Below, in pieces: positions 1-27,646 of a DNA stretch of 39,800 nucleotides. The notes under the pieces were generated by a model, which was not told the DNA's origin, made no database searches, and saw only the letters and a program-made list of their open reading frames with translations. The first letter of the stretch is position 1, and every line of letters begins with the position of its first letter. The translations under genes were made by a program, and so were the position numbers. Source of the stretch: a virus (taxonomy: Duplodnaviria > Heunggongvirae > Uroviricota > Caudoviricetes); IMG/VR virus record IMGVR_UViG_3300042892_001069; one strand, 5' to 3'.

Positions 1-96
1 TGAGCGTCTATTTCTAGAAAGCATTTCTGCCTGTCCTTCGACCACCTTCTATAGCAATTACGTTAGTAGTTTAAATTGCTGTAGTCATCCAAAACT

Positions 97-266
97 AACA
101 GGATCGTTGTTGACTGCTTTTATTTTACTCAGGCCATCACTCTGAGCTCGTTAGTCTTATTTCAATAGACCCCTTCAACGCTCGGTGTTTTTACGCACTC
201 TGCTCCAGTTTCTACCACAGTGTCTAACAGTTCATAGTATATGAATGTTGCTGTACCGATCCTAAA
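97..266 (-). ncRNA. Extended copy of the repeated AGGAU..ACAGCAA..AUCCUGUU structured RNA
   Basis: Same termini as the copies at 13749, 15399 and 15762 (TTTAGGATCGGTACAGCAA ... CGATCCTGTT), with about 130 nt of internal hairpins. Confidence 0.6.
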
Positions 267-915: not shown

Positions 916-1482
916 TTAAAGTATGTCAACGTCAGCCGCTAGTATATAACGATATTGTTGGCTTTGTACAATGCCCGGACGATGCCAAACCGCACTCGGA
1001 TAAATCATCCAAGTATAGTACTGCGGCCTAATATAAAACTTACCGTCACTTTCTGGTCCGTCTGGGGCCATCTCAGTACCACACGTATCAAAATCATTAA
1101 CATCATCTGGTATACGTAAGTACATAATTCCGCTTAATGAATTGCCGCTGTGCTTATCGTGATGATGCCAATATGTTTCACGATCTTCTACGGTACTTAA
1201 ATTTGTTTTAAAACTCCATGCCATCATGTTGGCTACACGAGCTTCGTGTCCTAAATACAAGAATATGCTGGTTAAAAATGTCATTCTATATTTTAACCAA
1301 ATAGGCTCTTGTCTAGCAAAGATGTTTTCTTGTGTTTGATACGGCGGACTGTTTTTAAAGTAGTTGCCGGAATCAATTATACTATCAATAGTGTAGATAG
1401 CCGATTGAGTGTCATCCGGAGTTATCAGTCCGCTAAAATTATATGTGCGACATAAACTATTTTGATCAACTACTGTATTCAT
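916..1482 (-). CDS. Putative 2OG-Fe(II) oxygenase
   Basis: WHHH...LSGIMYL...IYPSAVWHR jelly-roll pattern with metal-binding His residues. Confidence 0.6.
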   Translation of the reverse strand: MNTVVDQNSLCRTYNFSGLITPDDTQSAIYTIDSIIDSGNYFKNSPPYQTQENIFARQEPIWLKYRMTFLTSIFLYLGHEARVANMMAWSFKTNLSTVEDRETYWHHHDKHSGNSLSGIMYLRIPDDVNDFDTCGTEMAPDGPESDGKFYIRPQYYTWMIYPSAVWHRPGIVQSQQYRYILAADVDIL

Positions 1483-3600: not shown

Positions 3601-3690
3601 TGGCGGAAACGGTGAGATTCGAACTCACGGACCCTTTCGAGCCGGCAGTTTTCAAGACTGCTGCAATAAACCGGACTCTGCCACATTTCC
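3601..3690 (-). tRNA. tRNA-Ser(TGA)
   Basis: Loop CT-TGA-AA, long variable arm, CCA. Confidence 0.95.
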
Positions 3691-5464: not shown

Positions 5465-5960
5465 AATATTCTTTAGCTTCGTTGAAGCTAACAGCTAGTC
5501 CCCAACTGATGATTAGTCTATGTTGCTTTCCAGCCATAACTGAATGTGGGGCATCAACACGCACAAACGATGGTTTAGTCAATGTGAATTCGAATGTTTT
5601 ATTAACTGTACTTTCAAATTCGTAACCTATTAATTTATCACTATATACTAATTCATCTGTCGGCATTTCATAAAATGTAGTAATTGACCCTTGATGGCCT
5701 AGTAACGGTATATTTAAAGTAGCGGTGCGTTTAGCATCTATATGTGTTGGGAAACCTGTTTGAGGTTTTAAAAAATAAAAGTTCCAAACACTACCTAGTA
5801 TTTTTTTATGTTTTTGAAATAGATAATTTGTATATTCGTAATCAACTGCGTTTTGTTGGTGGTGTCTAAGGCCACTAACCTTTAAGTTGTTTATGATTGA
5901 TATGAGCTGTTTAGTATCGAATATAACATCTAATTCGAATACGTACTCATTGTCAATCAT
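5442..5960 (-). CDS. 2OG-Fe(II) oxygenase-like protein
   Basis: THIDAK...LNIPL...PHSV. Confidence 0.7.
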   Translation of the reverse strand: MIDNEYVFELDVIFDTKQLISIINNLKVSGLRHHQQNAVDYEYTNYLFQKHKKILGSVWNFYFLKPQTGFPTHIDAKRTATLNIPLLGHQGSITTFYEMPTDELVYSDKLIGYEFESTVNKTFEFTLTKPSFVRVDAPHSVMAGKQHRLIISWGLAVSFNEAKEYFNEYGLD

Positions 5961-6379
5961 GGCAATAAACTAATTGCGTCCTCAAATGGTACGTCTGACG
6001 GAATCTTAATAGCAAAAAAAAGTGATAGTGTTGCGGCCGGTGATAATTTTTGACGTTCTTTCCCGTTAATTGCAATAGGTGTGTCAATAAGAAAAGTCTC
6101 ACCGTCTTCAAATTCAATTGAAATATTGTTAGTGATAGGGAATATAATTAAACCATTGTTATTAGGTTTAGCGTGCATTATTTCTGCTGTGACTAATTTA
6201 GATAGTCCGTATTCTTCTGAATTTAGCGTTCTACTAAAAATATCCATACAAGGCAGTGACTCAGTACTATACCCAACTGCTGACAAATATTGTTGAATAC
6301 TACCTTGTTTTTCAGAGATGTTAAACAACGATAATAGTTTTAATCTATCGTACTCTGTATTGAATTTTTTGTATTTCAT
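5957..6379 (-). CDS. Hypothetical protein (possibly degenerate cupin fold)
   Basis: ORF coupled to the downstream oxygenase (ATGA overlap); LIIFPI...IAING strands. Confidence 0.5.
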   Translation of the reverse strand: MKYKKFNTEYDRLKLLSLFNISEKQGSIQQYLSAVGYSTESLPCMDIFSRTLNSEEYGLSKLVTAEIMHAKPNNNGLIIFPITNNISIEFEDGETFLIDTPIAINGKERQKLSPAATLSLFFAIKIPSDVPFEDAISLLP

Positions 6380-10361: not shown

Positions 10362-10967
10362 TTAAAAACCGCTAGTTAATAACAAGTGTAGCCTTGCAGT
10401 ATCTGATTGATTACAAAACGTATGTTCTATGCGGCTAGGATCTAAGTACCATATACGACCATCTGCTGGCATGTGTAGTTTAACAATCTCGGGGTGTCTT
10501 TTTAATAACCAAAAACATTGAGTATTAGTTATTAACGGAATATGATACCGATTTGGTGTGTGAAAATCTTTGTGAAAGTTATAATTTTGATTTGATCCCA
10601 ACCATATTAGCTGTGCCCTACCTTGAAACTTTTTAGTATGTTGATTGTATATTTTATGAACAAGTTTTCCTATGTACAAATCTTGGCTCTCAGATAGATG
10701 TTCTGTAAAGTCTGATTCATTAACATCTTGTTCAATGACCGACGCATGTTTTCCAGTATATTTGTTCCAACGATCATCTCCAACTAACTCGGGAAGATGC
10801 GTTAAATTTATGGCAAATCCAAACTTTGTTTTGCATCTTTCATTTATATCGTCTAATGTTAATCCTAACCGATTTAATAGCGTGTTAACACTATCGAGTA
10901 ATAGTAACATATCTACTCTATCACTTAACGGATAACAAAATGGTAGGAGTGTATCAACTTCTTTCAT
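10362..10967 (-). CDS. Asp/Asn beta-hydroxylase-like 2OG-Fe(II) oxygenase
   Basis: FHKD...RYHIPLITN...EHTFCN...RLHL. Confidence 0.78.
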   Translation of the reverse strand: MKEVDTLLPFCYPLSDRVDMLLLLDSVNTLLNRLGLTLDDINERCKTKFGFAINLTHLPELVGDDRWNKYTGKHASVIEQDVNESDFTEHLSESQDLYIGKLVHKIYNQHTKKFQGRAQLIWLGSNQNYNFHKDFHTPNRYHIPLITNTQCFWLLKRHPEIVKLHMPADGRIWYLDPSRIEHTFCNQSDTARLHLLLTSGF

Positions 10968-11200: not shown

Positions 11201-11674
11201 TTATACGTACCAAATCTCTTTAAAGCCTTCTTCTAGAGTTGGCTCTTCCCATCCTGCGATCATACCGTCAATGACATTCTTTGGAATGTTCTTGCCCGGC
11301 CGGCCACTTAATCTTACATCTAACTCGTCTCGATTTGGTGTACGGAATACAACAGCAATATGCTCGTACTCGGGTAACGCATTAAACTTTCGAGCACGAC
11401 TCATTACCGTAGTACTGGTCTGATCCCAAACAATATCTAACTGGAATGCGGCCGCCATATTAACATTCACCATCATCTGCTTGACAGCAGTGGGCATGTA
11501 TTCTTCAAAGACTTCGCTGTATGTTTTACCTTGATCCTTCGCATATCCTTCAACATGCTGATCAGTACTAACATACTTGTGATCTTTTTTGTCCTCACCT
11601 AGCCAGTCCTGATTTTTATACCAAGTACTTTTACCTGCACCTGGAACTCCAATTAATTGATAACACTTAGGCAT
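11201..11674 (-). CDS. P-loop polynucleotide kinase-like protein (AAA_33)
   Basis: LIGVPGAGKSTW Walker A, VSTD, IVWDQT; start revised to MPKCY. Confidence 0.8.
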   Translation of the reverse strand: MPKCYQLIGVPGAGKSTWYKNQDWLGEDKKDHKYVSTDQHVEGYAKDQGKTYSEVFEEYMPTAVKQMMVNVNMAAAFQLDIVWDQTSTTVMSRARKFNALPEYEHIAVVFRTPNRDELDVRLSGRPGKNIPKNVIDGMIAGWEEPTLEEGFKEIWYV

Positions 11675-11846
11675 TAGATAATCTCTCAATCTCGTTGGCT
11701 GCTTCATCTAATAAGTCTGCTATACGATCGGCAGCACCTTCTTGTACACTTTTACGGGAACCGATCTGTCTACGGATCTCTGCCCGCTTACGCAAACGGA
11801 ATACTAGGCTTTGTTCCGCTACAGGCAAATGGCTTTCATCTTTCAT
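11667..11846 (-). CDS. Small hypothetical protein (59 aa, MKDESHLP...)
   Basis: Read by hand; fills the gap and overlaps both neighbours. Confidence 0.65.
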   Translation of the reverse strand: MKDESHLPVAEQSLVFRLRKRAEIRRQIGSRKSVQEGAADRIADLLDEAANEIERLSNA

Positions 11847-13052: not shown

Positions 13053-13490
13053 TCAATATTGGGCTTTTTCATCAGCATCGTAAGTCCAACCCAAATGTTT
13101 CATCATACGATGCTTAACTAAAAGATTTGGACTACGAAACCGCTCAGTATCACTGAAGCCCATCATGACTCCTAACTCACAAACTGCGCCCGAACGACAA
13201 ATGCCAGCATAGCAATGAACAACCACATTCATGCGATTTTCCAATGCGTGTTGTAGCAAACGAACGAGCTCAGCGGCCTGCTCATGACTACAACGCATGG
13301 CTTCCTCTAGGGCAAAGTCTTTTTCTTCGATGTCCAAGAACTCAAAGTTGTGACGCTCTTTGAACTGATGCTTGGCTTCAGGTCGCCAGCCGGCTGGATC
13401 CACAATGCTGATCAACATACTGTTTGGGCCAGCATCGTGATGGAACCCTGTTGGGATATCAGCGGCTGCTACATTTTCAATCCACGGCAT
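13053..13490 (-). CDS. Cys-based (dual-specificity/PTP-like) phosphatase
   Basis: VVVHCYAGICRS = HCX5R P-loop. Confidence 0.85.
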   Translation of the reverse strand: MPWIENVAAADIPTGFHHDAGPNSMLISIVDPAGWRPEAKHQFKERHNFEFLDIEEKDFALEEAMRCSHEQAAELVRLLQHALENRMNVVVHCYAGICRSGAVCELGVMMGFSDTERFRSPNLLVKHRMMKHLGWTYDADEKAQY

Positions 13491-13748: not shown

Positions 13749-13816
13749 AAACAGGATAGCATTTTTTGGCTTTTTTTCAAGAAAAGATTTTTAATGTTTG
13801 CTGTTGCTATCCTAAA
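13749..13816 (-). ncRNA. Repeated structured RNA with a Ser(UGA) anticodon-like hairpin
   Basis: AGGATAGCA/TGCTATCCT stem, ACAGCAA, inner CTTTT-CTTGAAA-AAAAG. Confidence 0.7.
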
Positions 13817-13817
13817 C

Positions 13818-13893
13818 TGGAGCGGGTGATCGGAGTCGAACCGACGACAATCACGTTGGCAACGTGGCGCTCTACCAGCTGAGCTACACCCGC
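13818..13893 (-). tRNA. tRNA-Gly(GCC)
   Basis: Loop TT-GCC-AA, CCA. Confidence 0.95.
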
Positions 13894-13899
13894 ATATAA

Positions 13900-14149
13900 A
13901 ATATTGGAAAAGAACATTGAGAGTTTTGGTCCACAATCAAGTGAAACTTGGCTACCCAGTACATACAGTACTGCTCTACTTGTCTAGCAAACGTGGAGTG
14001 CCACTTGCGTTCGAGGATCGCCCAGACTGTATGTCCTGATCCACCACCCGGCTGAAGTGAGATTTATAACCTCCGGCTAATAACGGCTTCCGACCTTTTA
14101 TAACCCTTCTTTCGAAACTTCCGAACACCTTATGTTCTTTACCAATATT
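13900..14149 (-). ncRNA. Candidate ~250-nt structured ncRNA
   Basis: 18-bp terminal inverted repeat with one mismatch; GC-rich interior with CATACAG/CTGTATG pairing; no credible ORF. Confidence 0.55.
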
Positions 14150-14692
14150 TTATTTTGTTCCAATGATCATGTATCTTGTAAATGACCATGTGGGATATTT
14201 AAATTCTAAACTGCCTTCGTATACTACATCTGTAATATTATACAGTTCTTTAAACTCTGTCAAACTTTTTGAATACACTATATGATCATCATGTGGCATG
14301 TTATTACCTTGTAGTACAACTCGTGTACCGGGCGCAATGGCATCAAACCATGCTAGACTTTCAAAATGCTCAGTACTAGTGTTAATAACAAGGTCTGGCG
14401 CACCCGCAATAGTTTGATTACAATCTACAGTGTACGCTTTGAACTGCCAATTCTTTGAAACCCAATTTTCATTGATCATATCGGCGATAGATTCGCATGT
14501 TGGGTCCATATCGTAGCTTTCTATTTTTGCTACTTTAAATTGTTCACGGCTTAATAACAAGAAAGCTAGCACTCCGTACCAACCGCCATATACGTGTGTC
14601 AGTTCACTAGTCCATCCTAATTGTTCAAGCTCACGACACACCCATAACTTGCTGTCGATTTGTCCACTTGTAAAAGCATCTGTATTAAACAT
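14150..14692 (-). CDS. Class I SAM-dependent methyltransferase-like protein
   Basis: VYGGWYG motif I-like, YDMD, DLVINTSTEH; start revised to MFNTD. Confidence 0.65.
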   Translation of the reverse strand: MFNTDAFTSGQIDSKLWVCRELEQLGWTSELTHVYGGWYGVLAFLLLSREQFKVAKIESYDMDPTCESIADMINENWVSKNWQFKAYTVDCNQTIAGAPDLVINTSTEHFESLAWFDAIAPGTRVVLQGNNMPHDDHIVYSKSLTEFKELYNITDVVYEGSLEFKYPTWSFTRYMIIGTK

Positions 14693-14712
14693 ACAATACT
14701 TATTTTTTATTA

Positions 14713-14787
14713 TGGTGGTAACGGTGAGATTCGAACTCACACCGGGCGCCGTATGAAGGCGGTGCACAACCATTATGCTACGTTACC
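14713..14787 (-). tRNA. tRNA-Met/Ile2(CAT)
   Basis: Loop TT-CAT-AC, paired G1:C72 (elongator type), CCA. Confidence 0.88.
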
Positions 14788-14790
14788 ATA

Positions 14791-15016
14791 AGGATAACAA
14801 CTAAGTAGTTCCACCACATTATTGGAACCATTTAACTGATTTAACAAGTCCGGACAGTAGTCGGTACGTTACTTGAGATTCATCCAGTACAGTCCCCTTT
14901 ACGGACACTACCCTTCCGAGTAGTTGGGAGTTGAACCCATTAACCTTCTACTATACAGTACCTTCGAAGAATACTGAATAGCGTGACTTCACTTGCTAAC
15001 ACTCAATTGTTATTCT
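14791..15016 (-). ncRNA. Candidate ~225-nt structured ncRNA with T-loop motif
   Basis: AGAATAACAA/TTGTTATCCT terminal stem; GGG-TTCAACT-CCC T-loop hairpin; several further hairpins. Confidence 0.55.
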
Positions 15017-15018
15017 TA

Positions 15019-15093
15019 TGGTAGGGGCACAGGGACTCGAACCCTGATAGATCGGTTAAAAGCCGACTATTCTAGCCTTTGAATTATACCCCC
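15019..15093 (-). tRNA. tRNA-Lys(TTT)
   Basis: Loop CT-TTT-AA, CCA. Confidence 0.93.
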
Positions 15094-15096
15094 ATA

Positions 15097-15171
15097 TGGT
15101 CCACGCTCTGAGAATCGAACTCAGTTAGTCCGGTTAAGAGCCGGGTACTTCGCCACTAAAGTTTAGCGTGG
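15097..15171 (-). tRNA. tRNA-Lys(CTT)
   Basis: Loop CT-CTT-AA, CCA. Confidence 0.9.
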
Positions 15172-15232
15172 ATGGATCGTAAATATTTTCTTTTACGTGC
15201 CATCCAGGACCATACGGGGGTCAAAGATGACA

Positions 15233-15253
15233 CTAACGTTTAGCACGTTTCAT
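15233..15253 (-). CDS. Mini-ORF MKRAKR (possible regulatory uORF)
   Basis: GGAGAA SD, then ATG AAA CGT GCT AAA CGT TAG. Confidence 0.4.
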   Translation of the reverse strand: MKRAKR

Positions 15254-15254
15254 G

Positions 15255-15383
15255 CTATTCTCCTTTGTTGATATTTTTCTTTTGGGCTTGGCGTTCTGAC
15301 TTCCAGAATACTCGTTTCCAATCTTTCAAATGCTTCCACCATTGCGGACTGCGTGTTAGAATACCTTGTTGCTTGTGTGCCAT
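15255..15383 (-). CDS. Small basic protein (42 aa, MAHKQQG...)
   Basis: Read by hand; AAGGAA SD. Confidence 0.65.
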   Translation of the reverse strand: MAHKQQGILTRSPQWWKHLKDWKRVFWKSERQAQKKNINKGE

Positions 15384-15398
15384 TGGATTTCCTTTTAT

Positions 15399-15461
15399 AA
15401 AACAGGATGCTTATTTTTCAATTAAAAGTTGAATTTTTGAATTTGCTGTTCGCATCCTAAA
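15399..15461 (-). ncRNA. Repeated structured RNA with a Lys(UUU) anticodon-like hairpin
   Basis: AGGATGC/GCATCCT stem, ACAGCAA, inner TTCAA-CTTTTAA-TTGAA. Confidence 0.7.
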
Positions 15462-15463
15462 AT

Positions 15464-15537
15464 TGGTGCCCCATGACAGAATCGAACTGCCGTTAACTGA
15501 TTACAAAACAGTTGTTCTACCATTAAACTAAAAGGGC
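15464..15537 (-). tRNA. tRNA-Thr(TGT), second copy
   Basis: Loop TT-TGT-AA with U31:U39 mismatch, CCA. Confidence 0.88.
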
Positions 15538-15543
15538 TAAATT

Positions 15544-15618
15544 TGGCGCCGCTGATGGGAATCGAACCCACCTAAGTCTCGCAGACAACGAGTTACCCTC
15601 CCAGAGAGCTACAACGGC
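15544..15618 (-). tRNA. tRNA-Asp(GTC) with U37
   Basis: Loop TT-GTC-TG, G73, CCA. Confidence 0.85.
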
Positions 15619-15681
15619 ATATTGAATCATGAGCTTGTAGACTAAACTACAATTTACCGGTTTCTAGACGAACTCATAAAC

Positions 15682-15757
15682 TTGGTACTGTCGACGGGTA
15701 TCGATCCCGCTTCTCCACCTTGAAAGGGTAGCGTCCTAGCCACTAGACGACGACAGT
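15682..15757 (-). tRNA. tRNA-Glu(TTC), second copy
   Basis: Loop CT-TTC-AA, T-loop ATCGATA, CCA. Confidence 0.9.
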
Positions 15758-15761
15758 GTAT

Positions 15762-15827
15762 AAAACAGGATAGCATCTTTTTTCCATTAAAAGTAGAATT
15801 TTTGAGTTTGCTGTTGCTATCCTAAAC
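15762..15827 (-). ncRNA. Repeated structured RNA with a Lys(UUU) anticodon-like hairpin
   Basis: AGGATAGCA/TGCTATCCT stem, ACAGCAA, inner TTCTA-CTTTTAA-TGGAA. Confidence 0.7.
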
Positions 15828-16341: not shown

Positions 16342-16370
16342 ATTATAACACTCTCCCTCTATGATGTCAA
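16342..16370 (-). promoter_or_regulatory. sigma70 consensus promoter directly before tRNA-Tyr
   Basis: TTGACA-17 nt-TATAAT embedded in an inverted repeat. Confidence 0.8.
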
Positions 16371-17010: not shown

Positions 17011-17499
17011 TTAGGTTCGAACCGCCCCGACTAAGTGTAATCTTGGTTCCTCAGAACAGTTCATAAATGAGTGGAACCGTGTGGTATCAGTTAAGTAAAC
17101 ATTGTTTACTGCCAAGTGGTACGGGGAAATTTCTTTAAAAGTAAAATAGCATTGACTGTTAGTTATTAATGGAATATGAATGCGAGGGCTTTCATCTTTG
17201 TGCATGCTGTAACATGCGTAGGGATTCAACCACATCAGTCGTGTTTTAAATAATTTGTATTTGTTAATTAGCTCTTCAAATACAGTATCTTTAAAAAATG
17301 GATTTAAAATTGTTGAGGCAAATTCATCACCGCTACTTCGACCAACCGCACTCGCCCAAACGTCTTCGTTTATTTTATGTTGTAGACCAACTTGTTTTCC
17401 CTTAAATCCATAGTCGGCCCAAATCATATTAGGCTCGAGTCTAGTGTACTCATCTATAATTGGGGTGACATTGATTGTGTCAAGTATTTTTATTAGCAT
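17011..17499 (-). CDS. Asp/Asn beta-hydroxylase-like 2OG-Fe(II) oxygenase
   Basis: YSMHKD..PRIHIPLITN...FHSFMN..RLHL. Confidence 0.8.
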   Translation of the reverse strand: MLIKILDTINVTPIIDEYTRLEPNMIWADYGFKGKQVGLQHKINEDVWASAVGRSSGDEFASTILNPFFKDTVFEELINKYKLFKTRLMWLNPYACYSMHKDESPRIHIPLITNSQCYFTFKEISPYHLAVNNVYLTDTTRFHSFMNCSEEPRLHLVGAVRT

Positions 17500-18123: not shown

Positions 18124-18225
18124 AGTGTCTCCTTGTGTGTTTGTGCTATTATATAGCCTATTAAACTCCAAGGTCAATAGTTTTTCACTATAATTATTTC
18201 TATTAGGCTTATAGCTTTGTTTAAT

Positions 18226-18250
18226 AAAGAAACCCGCCGGAGCGGGTTCT
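18226..18250 (-). terminator. Intrinsic terminator after the tmRNA coding piece
   Basis: AGAACCCGC-TCCG-GCGGGTTTCTTT. Confidence 0.8.
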
Positions 18251-18600
18251 GCTATTTTGGATGACAAGGTATAACTACCTCGCAAGTGCTGTTTCTTAGG
18301 CAGCTAGTGCAAATGCGTCATCGTTTAAGGCGACGTCGACTTGCATGTACTTGAATGTATTTGCGTTTGCATTTACGATTTTTGTATTTTACGTGACCCC
18401 ACGTGTTGAGTCGTTATCCTATCTCACCCTGTCGAAACCATGGCAGGCCCATTTAAACACACTTTGGTTTATTAAGAGTTATAGCTATGCTAAAGAGCTC
18501 CTGGGATACCAAACCTGATCTTTTTACAGATTCAAGTATGCTTAGGTGGACCTGGCGGGAGTCGAACCCGCGTCCAGAACGCCTTACTTTACAACTTTGT
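18226..18600 (-). ncRNA. ssrA: Circularly permuted (two-piece) tmRNA
   Basis: Acceptor piece (GCGGG-TTCGACT-CCCGC-CAGGTCC-ACC, ~18600-18544) precedes the coding piece starting GGGCCTG (18450); G3:U70; tag ANANTFKYMQVDVALNDDAFALAA* at 18370-18296. Confidence 0.88.
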
Positions 18601-18624
18601 CCATTCAAGGACTACAACAATTCC

Positions 18625-18693
18625 TTACATAAAAACATGTATCAAAACAAATATAACAATTAAAACTGTTACAATGAATTGATACGCTTTCAT
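18625..18693 (-). CDS. 22-aa hydrophobic peptide MKAYQFIVTVLIVIFVLIHVFM
   Basis: Read by hand; starts 1 nt after the cspA stop. Confidence 0.45.
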   Translation of the reverse strand: MKAYQFIVTVLIVIFVLIHVFM

Positions 18694-27466: not shown

Positions 27467-27646
27467 TAGATTATTATTCTCTAATGTTGCTCCTTGGGGA
27501 TTATCCCTCTTTTAGTTAATTTTATTTCTTACAACTTACCTCTTTACGAAAATATTTACTCAATTAGCTGTAGAAATTATACTCTGCTGTTATTTTCTCA
27601 ACATGTAAAAAAATTTACACTGTTAAAAAATCAACACTTTCTCTGT

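What the first reader, a model, noticed from the sequence alone, without database searches (positions are those of the whole stretch)
13749..15827. Repeated small RNA family displaying tRNA anticodon loops (possible decoys)
Seen: three ~65-nt elements (13749-13816, 15399-15461, 15762-15827) share UUUAGGAU-N-ACAGCAA ... AUCCUGUU. The closing stem covaries between copies (GAUAGC/GCUAUC, GAUGC/GCAUC, and GAUCG/CGAUC in the copy at 97-266). Each encloses, between A-rich linkers, a 5-bp stem with a canonical 7-nt anticodon-type loop: CU-UGA-AA (Ser), CU-UUU-AA (Lys) and CU-UUU-AA (Lys). The inner stems differ in sequence but keep pairing. Each copy starts 1-3 nt after a tRNA CCA and has no D-arm, T-arm or acceptor end. 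Established knowledge: PrrC and PARIS AriB cleave tRNA-Lys(UUU), and phages counter this with replacement tRNAs. Inference: these RNAs are anticodon stem-loop mimics that titrate anticodon nucleases or modification enzymes, mounted on a conserved scaffold that may bind a protein through ACAGCAA.
Basis: partly seen in the sequence, partly recalled or inferred. Interest (0 to 1): 0.85.

Follow-up and report, generated by a model that had tools for sequence, protein, structure and literature searches.

The report
Phage Ro-like protein's anticodon-displaying small RNAs
The three ~65-nt repeats are real small-RNA genes inside a giant lake phage's tRNA array: each has a conserved "handle" that accompanies a Ro60-shaped protein gene in many unrelated phages, and each displays an exact copy of a tRNA anticodon loop, so they are probably partner RNAs of that protein that bait enzymes which read anticodons.

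Summary
Three 62-68-nt elements (13749-13816, 15400-15461, 15763-15826, minus strand) and longer copies at 96-266 and 1-94 share one handle. It is A-G opening a 7-bp covarying helix, 3 nt, CAGCAA, a variable insert, the 3' strand, then CUG.

My covariance model finds this handle only on the strand of a DUF2828/DUF7788 gene: 152 of 152 hits in 79 loci. It lies next to that gene or in its tRNA array in Felix O1-like, A511, KVP40/nt-1 and cyanophage genomes. It is absent from T4 and T5, which lack the gene. Here the gene lies just beyond the window start. Its AlphaFold model matches Ro60.

The inner hairpins do mimic anticodon arms. The three loops equal the phage's own tRNA-Ser(UGA) and tRNA-Lys(UUU) loops. 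In relatives, 40 of 139 short copies obey the U33 and purine-37 rules. Orthologous copies differ only in the triplet (GAA, GUC, GUA, GUU).

Best reading: Y-RNA-like partners of a Ro60-like protein that present anticodon baits. The decoy function is untested. The family is not in Rfam, and its handle resembles Dictyostelium Class I RNAs. This scan has noted the family before on other DNA (141 notes).

The parts
13749..13816 (-). Short copy A (68 nt), between tRNA-Gly(GCC) and tRNA-Gln(UUG). Handle 5' strand AGGAUAG at 13813-13807, spacer CAA, CAGCAA at 13803-13798, 3' strand CUAUCCU at 13759-13753, G at 13752. Inner arm 13786-13770 with loop CUUGAAA at 13781-13775.
   Evidence: 58.8 bits, E 1.6e-10; the loop equals that of tRNA-Ser(UGA) at 3601-3690
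15400..15461 (-). Short copy B (62 nt), following tRNA-Thr(UGU) and preceding a 42-codon basic ORF. Handle AGGAUGC/GCAUCCU. Inner arm 15433-15417 with loop CUUUUAA at 15428-15422.
   Evidence: 64.9 bits, E 8e-12; the loop equals that of tRNA-Lys(UUU) at 15019-15093
15763..15826 (-). Short copy C (64 nt), between tRNA-Ile(UAU) and tRNA-Glu(UUC). Handle AGGAUAG/CUAUCCU. Inner arm 15798-15782 with loop CUUUUAA at 15793-15787.
   Evidence: 60.2 bits, E 8e-11
96..266 (-). Long copy (171 nt): the same handle (AGGAUCG/CGAUCCU, CAGCAA, CUG) closing a ~145-nt structured insert. It is first of a tandem trio that ends at the DUF2828 start codon.
   Evidence: 25.2 bits, E 0.003; conserved in relatives, where only the closing helix is resolved
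1..94 (-). 5' part of the second long copy (236 nt; UUUUGGAUGAC-UA-CAGCAA ... GAUCAUCCUGUU). It continues beyond the window start. It is followed outside the window by a 60-nt copy abutting the DUF2828 gene (contig G000:C1 5692-5633; gene 5620-4208).
15019..15093 (-). tRNA-Lys(UUU), whose anticodon loop CUUUUAA is copied in elements B and C.
3601..3690 (-). tRNA-Ser(UGA), whose anticodon loop CUUGAAA is copied in element A.
16342..16370 (-). Consensus sigma-70-type promoter (TTGACA-17-TATAAT, 12 of 12, with TG) heading this stretch of the tRNA/element array. It is the likely start of the precursor transcript.
   Evidence: a pattern match only

Best explanation
The elements are small non-coding RNAs of a widespread phage family. 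They act as Y-RNA-like partners of a Ro60-fold protein (DUF2828 + DUF7788/vWA). In this phage the gene sits at the downstream end of the same minus-strand tRNA island.

They are transcribed with the tRNAs and released by the tRNA-processing enzymes; this step is inferred. The constant handle is the protein-binding site (inferred from strict co-occurrence). It consists of invariant A-U and G-C pairs opening a 7-bp helix, 3 nt, single-stranded CAGCAA, and a G after the 3' strand. The variable insert is the business end.

In the three copies of this finding the insert is a 5-bp stem with a 7-nt loop that copies the anticodon loops of tRNA-Ser(UGA) and tRNA-Lys(UUU). The particle would therefore present anticodon-arm look-alikes to proteins that read anticodon loops. 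My preferred mechanism is that they bait or occupy host anticodon nucleases of anti-phage defence, with the triplet swapped as hosts change. That last step is inference only.
For: Family and structure:
- Three copies plus long versions are present.
- The closing helix covaries, with invariant AG...CU, CAGCA and CUG.
- Rfam has no match at threshold.

Protein:
- P0001 hits DUF2828 and DUF7788 in Pfam and phrog_850 'RNA-binding protein'.
- Its AlphaFold model (pLDDT 90.4) has Ro60 structures as its 13 top PDB matches, full length, TM 0.37-0.62 (0.53-0.62 for 11 of them).
- The MIDAS residues D276, S278 and S280 are invariant.

Linkage:
- Model R1 gives 152 hits at E<=0.01 in 79 DUF2828 loci, all on the gene's strand.
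- A strict descriptor gives 456 hits on the gene strand against 7 on the other.
- Whole-genome scans place hits only beside the gene or in its tRNA array in SUSP2, A511, nt-1, BUCT-ZZ01, KVP40 and Bas63. T4 and T5, which lack the gene, have none.

Anticodon display:
- The window loops are identical to the phage's own tRNA loops.
- 40 of 139 short elements have a 7-nt loop with U33 and R37, against 0.7 in shuffles.
- In 37 such elements U33 and A37 are invariant, and 10 of 12 pairs covary.
- Orthologous copies differ only in the triplet: GAA, GUC, GUA, GUU.
- 11 of 18 loops in the frame [C/A]U-NNN-AA equal real phage tRNA loops, against 30 of 128 possible.

Published context:
- Bas63 gp130 is an ortholog. 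It counters the Ppl defence, and its authors guessed at Y RNAs among the neighbouring tRNA genes (PMC11482910).
- The homologue in Listeria phage CKA15 is present in virions. That phage's most highly transcribed regions, unannotated or of doubtful coding status, lie within 2 kb upstream, two of them near tRNA genes, and its authors speculated that they are Y RNAs (PMC12282133).
- A canonical phage Ro60 binds phage Y-like RNAs and PNPase (PMC12135203).
Against: - No binding, processing or functional experiment exists for this family.
- Bas63 gp130 alone, without phage RNAs, restored T7 growth on Ppl, so the protein can act without these RNAs or with host RNAs.
- The inner stems are A-U rich and weak. 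Full-length MFE folds do not predict them.
- Anticodon-like loops are lineage- and class-specific. They are missing in the leader class (9-nt loops), in A511 and in Felix O1-like copies.
- U-rich 5' and A-rich 3' halves favour N-U...A-A loops by composition.
- Alignment A4 was selected for 7-nt loops, and I dropped 5 loops that break the rules.
- The elements are phylogenetically related, so the counts are not independent.
- Expression rests only on metatranscriptome contigs, which cannot show ends or exclude DNA.
Confidence: 0.6

Rival explanations
1. Adaptor rather than decoy. As with bacterial Y RNAs that tether Ro60 to PNPase, the anticodon-arm module recruits a tRNA-handling enzyme to the Ro-like ring. 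The enzyme could be a modification enzyme, a repair kinase, phosphatase or ligase, or an exonuclease. The particle would then work in tRNA quality control or repair during infection.
For: The Ro60/Y-RNA precedent applies (PMC4201824; PMC12135203). The tRNA island carries a polynucleotide-kinase-like P-loop ORF (11201-11707) and a DSP-type phosphatase ORF (13053-13490). Long family members display T-arm/D-arm modules like YrlA. Many displayed triplets belong to tRNAs that carry bulky A37 modifications; that point rests on my own knowledge.
Against: No enzyme partner is identified. Turnover of the triplet between orthologous copies looks more like an arms race than housekeeping. The kinase and phosphatase assignments are weak (26-47 bits).
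Confidence: 0.2
2. Free RNA decoys. The RNAs act alone by titrating anticodon nucleases or modification enzymes, and the conserved scaffold serves only for stability or processing.
For: The loops are exact copies of tRNA anticodon loops and the triplets vary. tRNA-Lys(UUU) is a known nuclease target; that is established knowledge for PrrC and PARIS.
Against: Single-stranded CAGCAA and the two invariant base pairs are conserved across phages of Gram-positive bacteria, Gram-negative bacteria and cyanobacteria, and only where the DUF2828 gene is present. One copy class abuts that gene's start codon. A stability element would not need this linkage.
Confidence: 0.1
3. Cis-regulatory operators. The handle is the protein's own operator: the copy in the mRNA leader gives autoregulation, and in nt-1 its helix encloses the Shine-Dalgarno sequence and the AUG. 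The tRNA-array copies are then titrating or merely duplicated sites without a function of their inserts.
For: A handle lies directly before the start codon in most of the related loci (hits at about 5920-5990, with the gene at 6001). In nt-1 the stem includes the AUG.
Against: This does not explain copies 13-16 kb upstream between tRNAs, the anticodon-rule inserts, or the tRNA-like inserts. It is compatible with the main reading rather than exclusive of it.
Confidence: 0.07
4. Array punctuation or mobile DNA. The repeats are processing signals, terminators or promoters that space the tRNA genes, or miniature inverted-repeat elements.
For: They fill gaps between tRNAs. A U-rich tail follows the helix in this phage. 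Copy A holds one weak promoter-like match. Metatranscriptome assemblies join across copies (table 5).
Against: The scan found no terminator-like site at any copy, and the promoter-like match is not shared by copies B and C. SUSP2 copies have no U tail. Compensatory changes show selection on RNA pairing. The strand bias is absolute. T4 and T5 tRNA arrays lack the elements.
Confidence: 0.03

Closest known systems
Ro60 (Rsr) with Y RNAs, especially bacterial and phage YrlA (Rfam RF02553; Chen et al. 2014, PMC4201824; Thermus phage phiLo Ro60 with Yrl1 and Yrl2, PMC12135203)
   Same: A ring-plus-vWA protein of the Ro60 fold is encoded next to several small RNAs. Their 5' and 3' ends form a helix carrying a conserved motif, and their other module imitates tRNA parts. 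Long relatives have T-arm/D-arm modules as YrlA does.
   Different: The protein belongs to Pfam DUF2828/DUF7788, not TROVE. The RNA motif is CAGCAA after a 7-bp helix, not GNCGAAN0-1G. The YrlA model does not hit the elements. The short copies display an anticodon arm, the one tRNA part that YrlA's conserved T and D arms do not provide. The RNAs are embedded between tRNA genes.
Class I RNAs of dictyostelid social amoebae (Rfam RF01414; Kjellin et al. 2021, PMC7919456)
   Same: The lengths agree (42-65 nt against 62-68 nt). Both have a short covarying helix joining the ends, conserved termini (AAG...CUGU against UAG...CUGU), an ACAGCAA-containing motif right after the 5' strand, and a variable A/U-rich interior. 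RF01414 is the only non-tRNA Rfam model that hits all three copies, and it also hits the corresponding elements in SUSP2, A511 and BUCT-ZZ01 (17.8-26.9 bits).
   Different: All scores are below the gathering score of 41.5. The host domain, promoter (DUSE) and known binding protein (the RRM protein Rnp1A) are different. The paper reports the class as unique to Dictyostelia. Homology is unproven.
Bas63 (Escherichia phage JohannRWettstein) gp130, anti-Ppl counter-defence protein (PhageMaP preprint, PMC11482910)
   Same: It belongs to the same protein family: bas63_0130 is 86% identical in DNA to the SUSP2 gene, and the SUSP2 protein is 36.7% identical to P0001. It sits at the head of a tRNA array that holds four handle RNAs.
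   Different: The paper tested the protein only and merely guessed that some tRNA genes are Y RNAs. Felix O1-like copies do not show U33-type anticodon loops.
Phage-encoded replacement tRNAs against anticodon nucleases (T5 tRNAs against PARIS and Retron-Eco7; PMC11555353 and 10.1101/2024.01.02.573894, listed)
   Same: These are phage RNAs from tRNA arrays that answer host tRNA-cleaving defences. The anticodons concerned overlap (Lys-UUU, Tyr-GUA).
   Different: Those are complete, functional tRNAs that restore translation. The elements here lack the acceptor, D and T arms and cannot be charged.

Membership tests
Y RNA / YrlA (RF02553) | Encoded beside a Ro60 ortholog | tested here: met
   The elements share strand and island with a Ro60-fold gene, and the linkage holds in 79 loci and 6 complete phage genomes. 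The protein is DUF2828, not Pfam TROVE.
Y RNA / YrlA (RF02553) | Match to the YrlA covariance model | tested here: not met
   The only YrlA hit in the region scores 17.4 bits (gathering score 69) and lies over tRNAs, not over the elements.
Y RNA / YrlA (RF02553) | Rsr-binding motif GNCGAAN0-1G near the 5' end | tested here: not met
   The invariant motif is CAGCAA, 3 nt after the helix. The YrlA motif is as given in PMC4201824.
Y RNA / YrlA (RF02553) | tRNA-like T-arm/D-arm domain | tested here: not met
   It is absent from the three short copies. It is present in long relatives: SUSP2 L088:4920-5050 (partial tRNA hit, 31.3 bits) and BUCT L092:3619-3740.
Y RNA / YrlA (RF02553) | Physical binding to the Ro60 protein | not testable with these tools
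   This needs immunoprecipitation or a gel shift.
Dictyostelium Class I RNA (RF01414) | 42-65 nt, with a short covarying stem joining the ends | tested here: met
   The copies are 62-68 nt and have a 7-bp covarying helix.
Dictyostelium Class I RNA (RF01414) | Conserved 11-nt motif next to the 5' stem strand, and conserved termini AAG...CUGU | tested here: inconclusive
   ACAGCAA and AG...CUGU are shared, but the CCUU part is not (alignment; PMC7919456).
Dictyostelium Class I RNA (RF01414) | Score at or above Rfam's gathering threshold (41.5 bits) | tested here: not met
   The scores are 17.8-26.9 bits.
Dictyostelium Class I RNA (RF01414) | DUSE promoter about 60 nt upstream, in a dictyostelid genome | tested here: not met
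   The context is a phage tRNA array with a sigma-70-type promoter.
tRNA | Cloverleaf with acceptor, D and T arms | tested here: not met
   Neither ARAGORN nor Rfam's tRNA model calls the elements.
Ro60 / TROVE proteins (for the partner protein) | HEAT-repeat ring plus vWA domain with a MIDAS motif | tested here: met
   The top Foldseek hits are all Ro60. DVSGSM is present, with D276, S278 and S280 invariant.
Ro60 / TROVE proteins (for the partner protein) | Sequence match to Pfam TROVE or to solved Ro60 chains | tested here: not met
   Pfam gives only DUF2828 and DUF7788. phmmer against PDB sequences finds nothing at E<=1.
Intrinsic terminator | G+C-rich hairpin with a 3-8-nt loop, followed by a U run | tested here: not met
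   The scan finds no such site at any copy. The enclosed loop is 40-47 nt.

The most novel reading that the evidence does not exclude
The handle (AG, short helix, ACAGCAA..., CUGU) is the same recognition module as in the Class I RNAs of Dictyostelium. Those RNAs are held to be unique to social amoebae and have no known mechanism. If the two are truly related, Class I RNAs would be Y-like partners of a DUF2828/DUF7788-type Ro-like protein. That family also exists in eukaryotes: AlphaFold DB clusters include 'Plant/T31B5-30 protein'. Phages would then use the same ribonucleoprotein with swappable anticodon baits.
Probability: 0.2. Interest if true: 0.9.

Novelty: new variant of a known kind. 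Interest (0 to 1): 0.8.

Why it matters
Ro60 and Y RNAs are conserved from bacteria to humans, yet what the RNA's variable module does is known in very few cases. Here a second, much larger Ro-like protein family has a recognisable RNA partner family whose variable module can be read directly from sequence. The protein family has 6230 clusters at 50% identity and occurs in 711 of 50,697 phage records. The variable module is an anticodon arm with a swappable triplet.

That gives a testable hypothesis for an orphan anti-defence protein (Bas63 gp130). It offers a possible RNA-based answer of phages to anticodon nucleases that differs from replacement tRNAs. It explains unannotated gaps in many phage tRNA arrays. 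It also gives a lead on the mechanism of the Dictyostelium Class I RNAs.

Tried and rejected
- Rfam at gathering thresholds finds nothing on the elements. At permissive thresholds only sub-threshold Dicty_Class_I_RNA hits appear.
- Megablast of the region against named phages finds no match.
- My first pattern, with N5 spacing, missed the copies, and N4 is correct.
- My first ad hoc stem scanners gave no hits or noisy ones, and I replaced them.
- RNAalifold on the 171-nt class resolves only the closing helix, so the interior stays unsolved.
- A weak R1 hit at 27544-27602 (17.6 bits, E 0.13) has a 2-nt spacer and no CUG. I treat it as chance.
- The T5 'Rad' anti-retron protein is a 189-aa unrelated protein, so it is not relevant.
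- I could not establish whether Dictyostelium encodes a DUF2828 protein. AlphaFold DB rows hide organisms, Avesson et al. 2011 is not held, and the five papers that mention DUF2828 are unrelated.
- Metatranscriptome contigs of four freshwater runs cover the tRNAs and the elements, including a 110-nt contig at 13707-13816 with no differences. They leave ORF 14208-14611 uncovered. Contigs show neither ends nor strand, and DNA carry-over is possible, so this is only a weak hint of stable RNA.
- The promoter and terminator readings were rejected.
- No complex prediction was run, because the tool takes proteins only.
Full report
**Setting.** The window is part of a 46.8-kb IMG/VR virus record that CheckV rates 13% complete. 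Near-identical genes occur on 345-356-kb contigs, so this is a giant freshwater phage. All 33 tRNA genes and a permuted tmRNA lie on the minus strand. Everything below is read on that strand.

**The observation.** The three elements are real. On the minus strand they read UUUAGGAU-NNNN-ACAGCAA ... NNNN-AUCCUGUUU. The pattern with N4 spacing has 7 matches in the window, 5 of them with 0-1 mismatch, and none of 100 shuffles reached 7. The other two close matches are long versions. One spans 96-266 (171 nt). One starts at 94 and runs off the window. A sixth copy of 60 nt lies just beyond the window.

The sixth copy ends 12 nt before an ATG that opens a 470-codon gene.
- Its product, P0001, matches Pfam DUF2828 and DUF7788 and phrog_850 'RNA-binding protein'.
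- It has no sequence match to any solved structure.
- An AlphaFold model built on 57 diverse homologues (pLDDT 90.4, pTM 0.90) has Ro60 structures as its 13 best PDB matches: Thermus phage phiLo, Xenopus, human and Deinococcus Rsr. These cover the full length with probability 1.0 and TM 0.37-0.62, 0.53-0.62 for 11 of them. Reviewed Ro60 proteins head the Swiss-Prot list.
- The vWA MIDAS residues are invariant.
- The family is very large: 6230 clusters at 50% identity and 711 phage records. These include Felix O1-like, A511-like and KVP40-like phages, Campylobacter, Staphylococcus and Enterococcus phages, and mycobacteriophages, where it is annotated 'Ro-like RNA binding protein'.

**Linkage of RNA and protein.** I looked next to this gene in four very distant phages and found the same signature in the non-coding gaps.
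- Listeria phage A511: three tandem copies upstream of gp57.
- E. coli phage SUSP2: four copies between the tRNAs just downstream.
- Synechococcus phage BUCT-ZZ01: three tandem copies upstream.
- Vibrio phage nt-1: one copy whose helix encloses the ribosome-binding site and the AUG.

An alignment of 21 short elements from five lineages has these invariant columns: A-G at the start of the helix, CAGCA three nucleotides after it, and C-U-G at the end. Seven base pairs are paired in every sequence. The first two pairs never vary. The other five carry changes on both sides in 5 to 12 of the 21 sequences. Sliding the partner strand destroys pairing.

I built covariance model R1 from this alignment.
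- In the window it finds only the three copies (59-65 bits) and the long copy (25 bits).
- In complete genomes it hits only beside the gene or in the tRNA array on the gene's strand. New hits outside the training set appear in nt-1, BUCT-ZZ01, KVP40 and Bas63.
- In 79 DUF2828 loci (820 kb, both strands) all 152 hits at E<=0.01 are on the gene's strand. One class abuts the start codon.
- A strict descriptor gives 456 hits on the gene strand against 7 on the other. Four of those seven are true copies in two loci stored in reverse orientation.
- T4 and T5 have tRNA arrays but no DUF2828 gene, and they have no hit.

This is co-occurrence, not binding. It is strong enough to name the protein as the likely partner.

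**The anticodon claim.**
- In the window, the inner loops CUUGAAA, CUUUUAA and CUUUUAA are identical to the anticodon loops of this phage's own tRNA-Ser(UGA) and tRNA-Lys(UUU). The stems differ from those of the tRNAs.
- Among 139 distinct short elements from the related loci, 47 have a 7-nt inner loop. Forty also have U at loop position 2 and a purine at position 6 on a stem of at least 4 bp. Shuffled interiors give 0.7 on average and at most 4.
- The displayed triplets are UUU, UGU, UGA, GGA, GCA, UCU, GUU, CCA, CAU, GAA, GUC, GUA, CUU and UAU. All are ordinary anticodons and none has A at the first position.
- Eleven of 18 loops in the frame [C/A]U-NNN-AA equal a real anticodon loop among 1339 phage tRNAs of the same loci. 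Only 30 of the 128 possible loops in that frame do so. The matches include the unusual CUUAUAU of tRNA-Ile(UAU).
- In an alignment of 37 such elements, U33 and A37 are invariant and A38 is present in 35. Position 32 is C or A. All five inner pairs and five of seven outer pairs covary.
- Orthologous copies in four related phages share handle, linkers and inner stem. They differ essentially only in the triplet: GAA, GUC, GUA, GUU. That is the pattern expected if the triplet sets specificity.

**Caveats to the anticodon claim.**
- The 37 sequences were chosen for having 7-nt loops, and I left out five whose loops break the rules.
- The sequences are related, so counts are not independent events.
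- The interiors are U-rich on the 5' side and A-rich on the 3' side.
- The inner stems are so weak that full-length MFE folds of the three window copies do not contain them.
- The leader class has 9-nt loops, Felix O1-like copies lack U33, and A511 copies show no such arm.
- Long copies carry other inserts. Two of them have T-arm/D-arm modules like YrlA.

**How it probably works.** Shown so far: the family, its helix, its motif, its linkage to a Ro60-fold gene, and anticodon-loop mimicry in one large subclass.

Inferred:
- The RNAs are cut out of the tRNA precursor. A consensus promoter sits at 16370-16342. The elements start 1-2 nt plus UUU after a CCA, and in copies A and C they end about 10 nt before the next tRNA.
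- The handle binds the ring protein.
- The particle presents the arm to proteins that recognise anticodon loops.

I favour bait or decoy action against defence anticodon nucleases, for two reasons. The triplet turns over between close relatives. An ortholog of the protein is a proven counter-defence factor: Bas63 gp130 acts against Ppl (PMC11482910), and I confirmed that bas63_0130 is the ortholog with four handle RNAs downstream. Against this, gp130 worked in T7 without the phage RNAs. An adaptor role for tRNA modification, repair or decay enzymes is a serious rival. Kinase-like and phosphatase-like ORFs sit in this tRNA island.

**Published hints.** In Listeria phage CKA15 the homologue CKA15_055 is found in virions. 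The phage's three most highly transcribed regions lie within 2 kb upstream. One had first been annotated as three ORFs, and two are unannotated regions near tRNA genes. The authors speculated that they are Y RNAs (PMC12282133). I could not map those regions onto the A511 copies. Freshwater metatranscriptome contigs cover the elements and tRNAs here, but they cannot prove transcription.

**Comparison with known families.** The system works like Ro60 with Y RNAs, but it fails the membership tests for YrlA. The protein family, the motif and the model match all differ. The handle looks strikingly like that of Dictyostelium Class I RNAs in length, end-joining helix, ACAGCAA and the AG...CUGU termini. 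Rfam's Class I model is the only non-tRNA model that hits all three window copies, and it also hits the equivalent elements in three distant phages. Every score (17.8-26.9 bits) is below the threshold of 41.5 (PMC7919456). I reached both comparisons before consulting earlier notes.

**Earlier notes of this scan.** 141 earlier notes in at least 120 genomes describe the same handle with the same protein family, so this is a repeat sighting on other DNA. I found no publication that describes the RNA family.

**What this window adds.** It gives a clean case of exact anticodon-loop copies next to the tRNAs they imitate. With its relatives, it gives the triplet-swap series.

Noticed in passing
window 14788-15018 (-): A 231-nt ORF-free stretch lies between tRNA-Lys(UUU) and tRNA-Met. 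It folds into a closed multi-branch structure with paired ends (MFE -66.8 kcal/mol, z -3.07) and contains a T-loop-like GGGUUCAACUCCC. Contigs in three RNA runs join 14790 to 15017 without it, so some relatives lack it. Its depth is very high in one metatranscriptome. It has no Rfam match and no handle.
   Followed up: partly
window 13894-14135 (-): A second ORF-free 240-nt stretch follows tRNA-Gly(GCC). Metatranscriptome contigs cover it, but its folding energy is not unusual (z -0.59). Its nature is unknown.
   Followed up: partly
window 15261-15389 (-): Copy B is followed by a ribosome-binding-site-like AAAGGAAA and a 42-codon, very basic ORF (MAHKQQGILTRSPQWWKHLKDWKRVFWKSERQAQKKNINKGE) inside the tRNA array. 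The handle RNA may be its leader.
   Followed up: no
window 11201-11707 (-) and 13053-13490 (-): Within the tRNA island there is a P-loop kinase ORF (AAA_33, with a weak polynucleotide-kinase PHROG match) and a dual-specificity-phosphatase-like ORF. Together they could be RNA end-healing (tRNA repair) enzymes.
   Followed up: partly
window 18205-18644 (-): The phage encodes a two-piece (permuted) tmRNA of the betaproteobacterial type, with tag peptide ANANTFKYMQVDVALNDDAFALAA. This hints at a betaproteobacterial host.
   Followed up: no
window 916-1482, 2203-2799, 10362-10967, 17011-17499 (-); contig G000:C1 1034-2511 (+): Many 2OG-Fe(II) oxygenase or Asp/Asn-hydroxylase-like ORFs are interleaved with the tRNA genes.
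   Followed up: no
L090 3989-4324 (Synechococcus phage BUCT-ZZ01): Two tRNA genes downstream of the DUF2828 gene carry near-identical ~40-nt inserts (ACGCAUUCUGUAAAGAAUGAAUUCUGCAAUC). These are possibly introns or handle-related insertions.
   Followed up: no
L171 4930-5082 (Bas63, bas63_0137) and L088 4332-4502 (SUSP2): Small annotated 'hypothetical protein' genes overlap handle RNAs, and bas63_0137 lies on the opposite strand. They are probably mis-annotations.
   Followed up: partly
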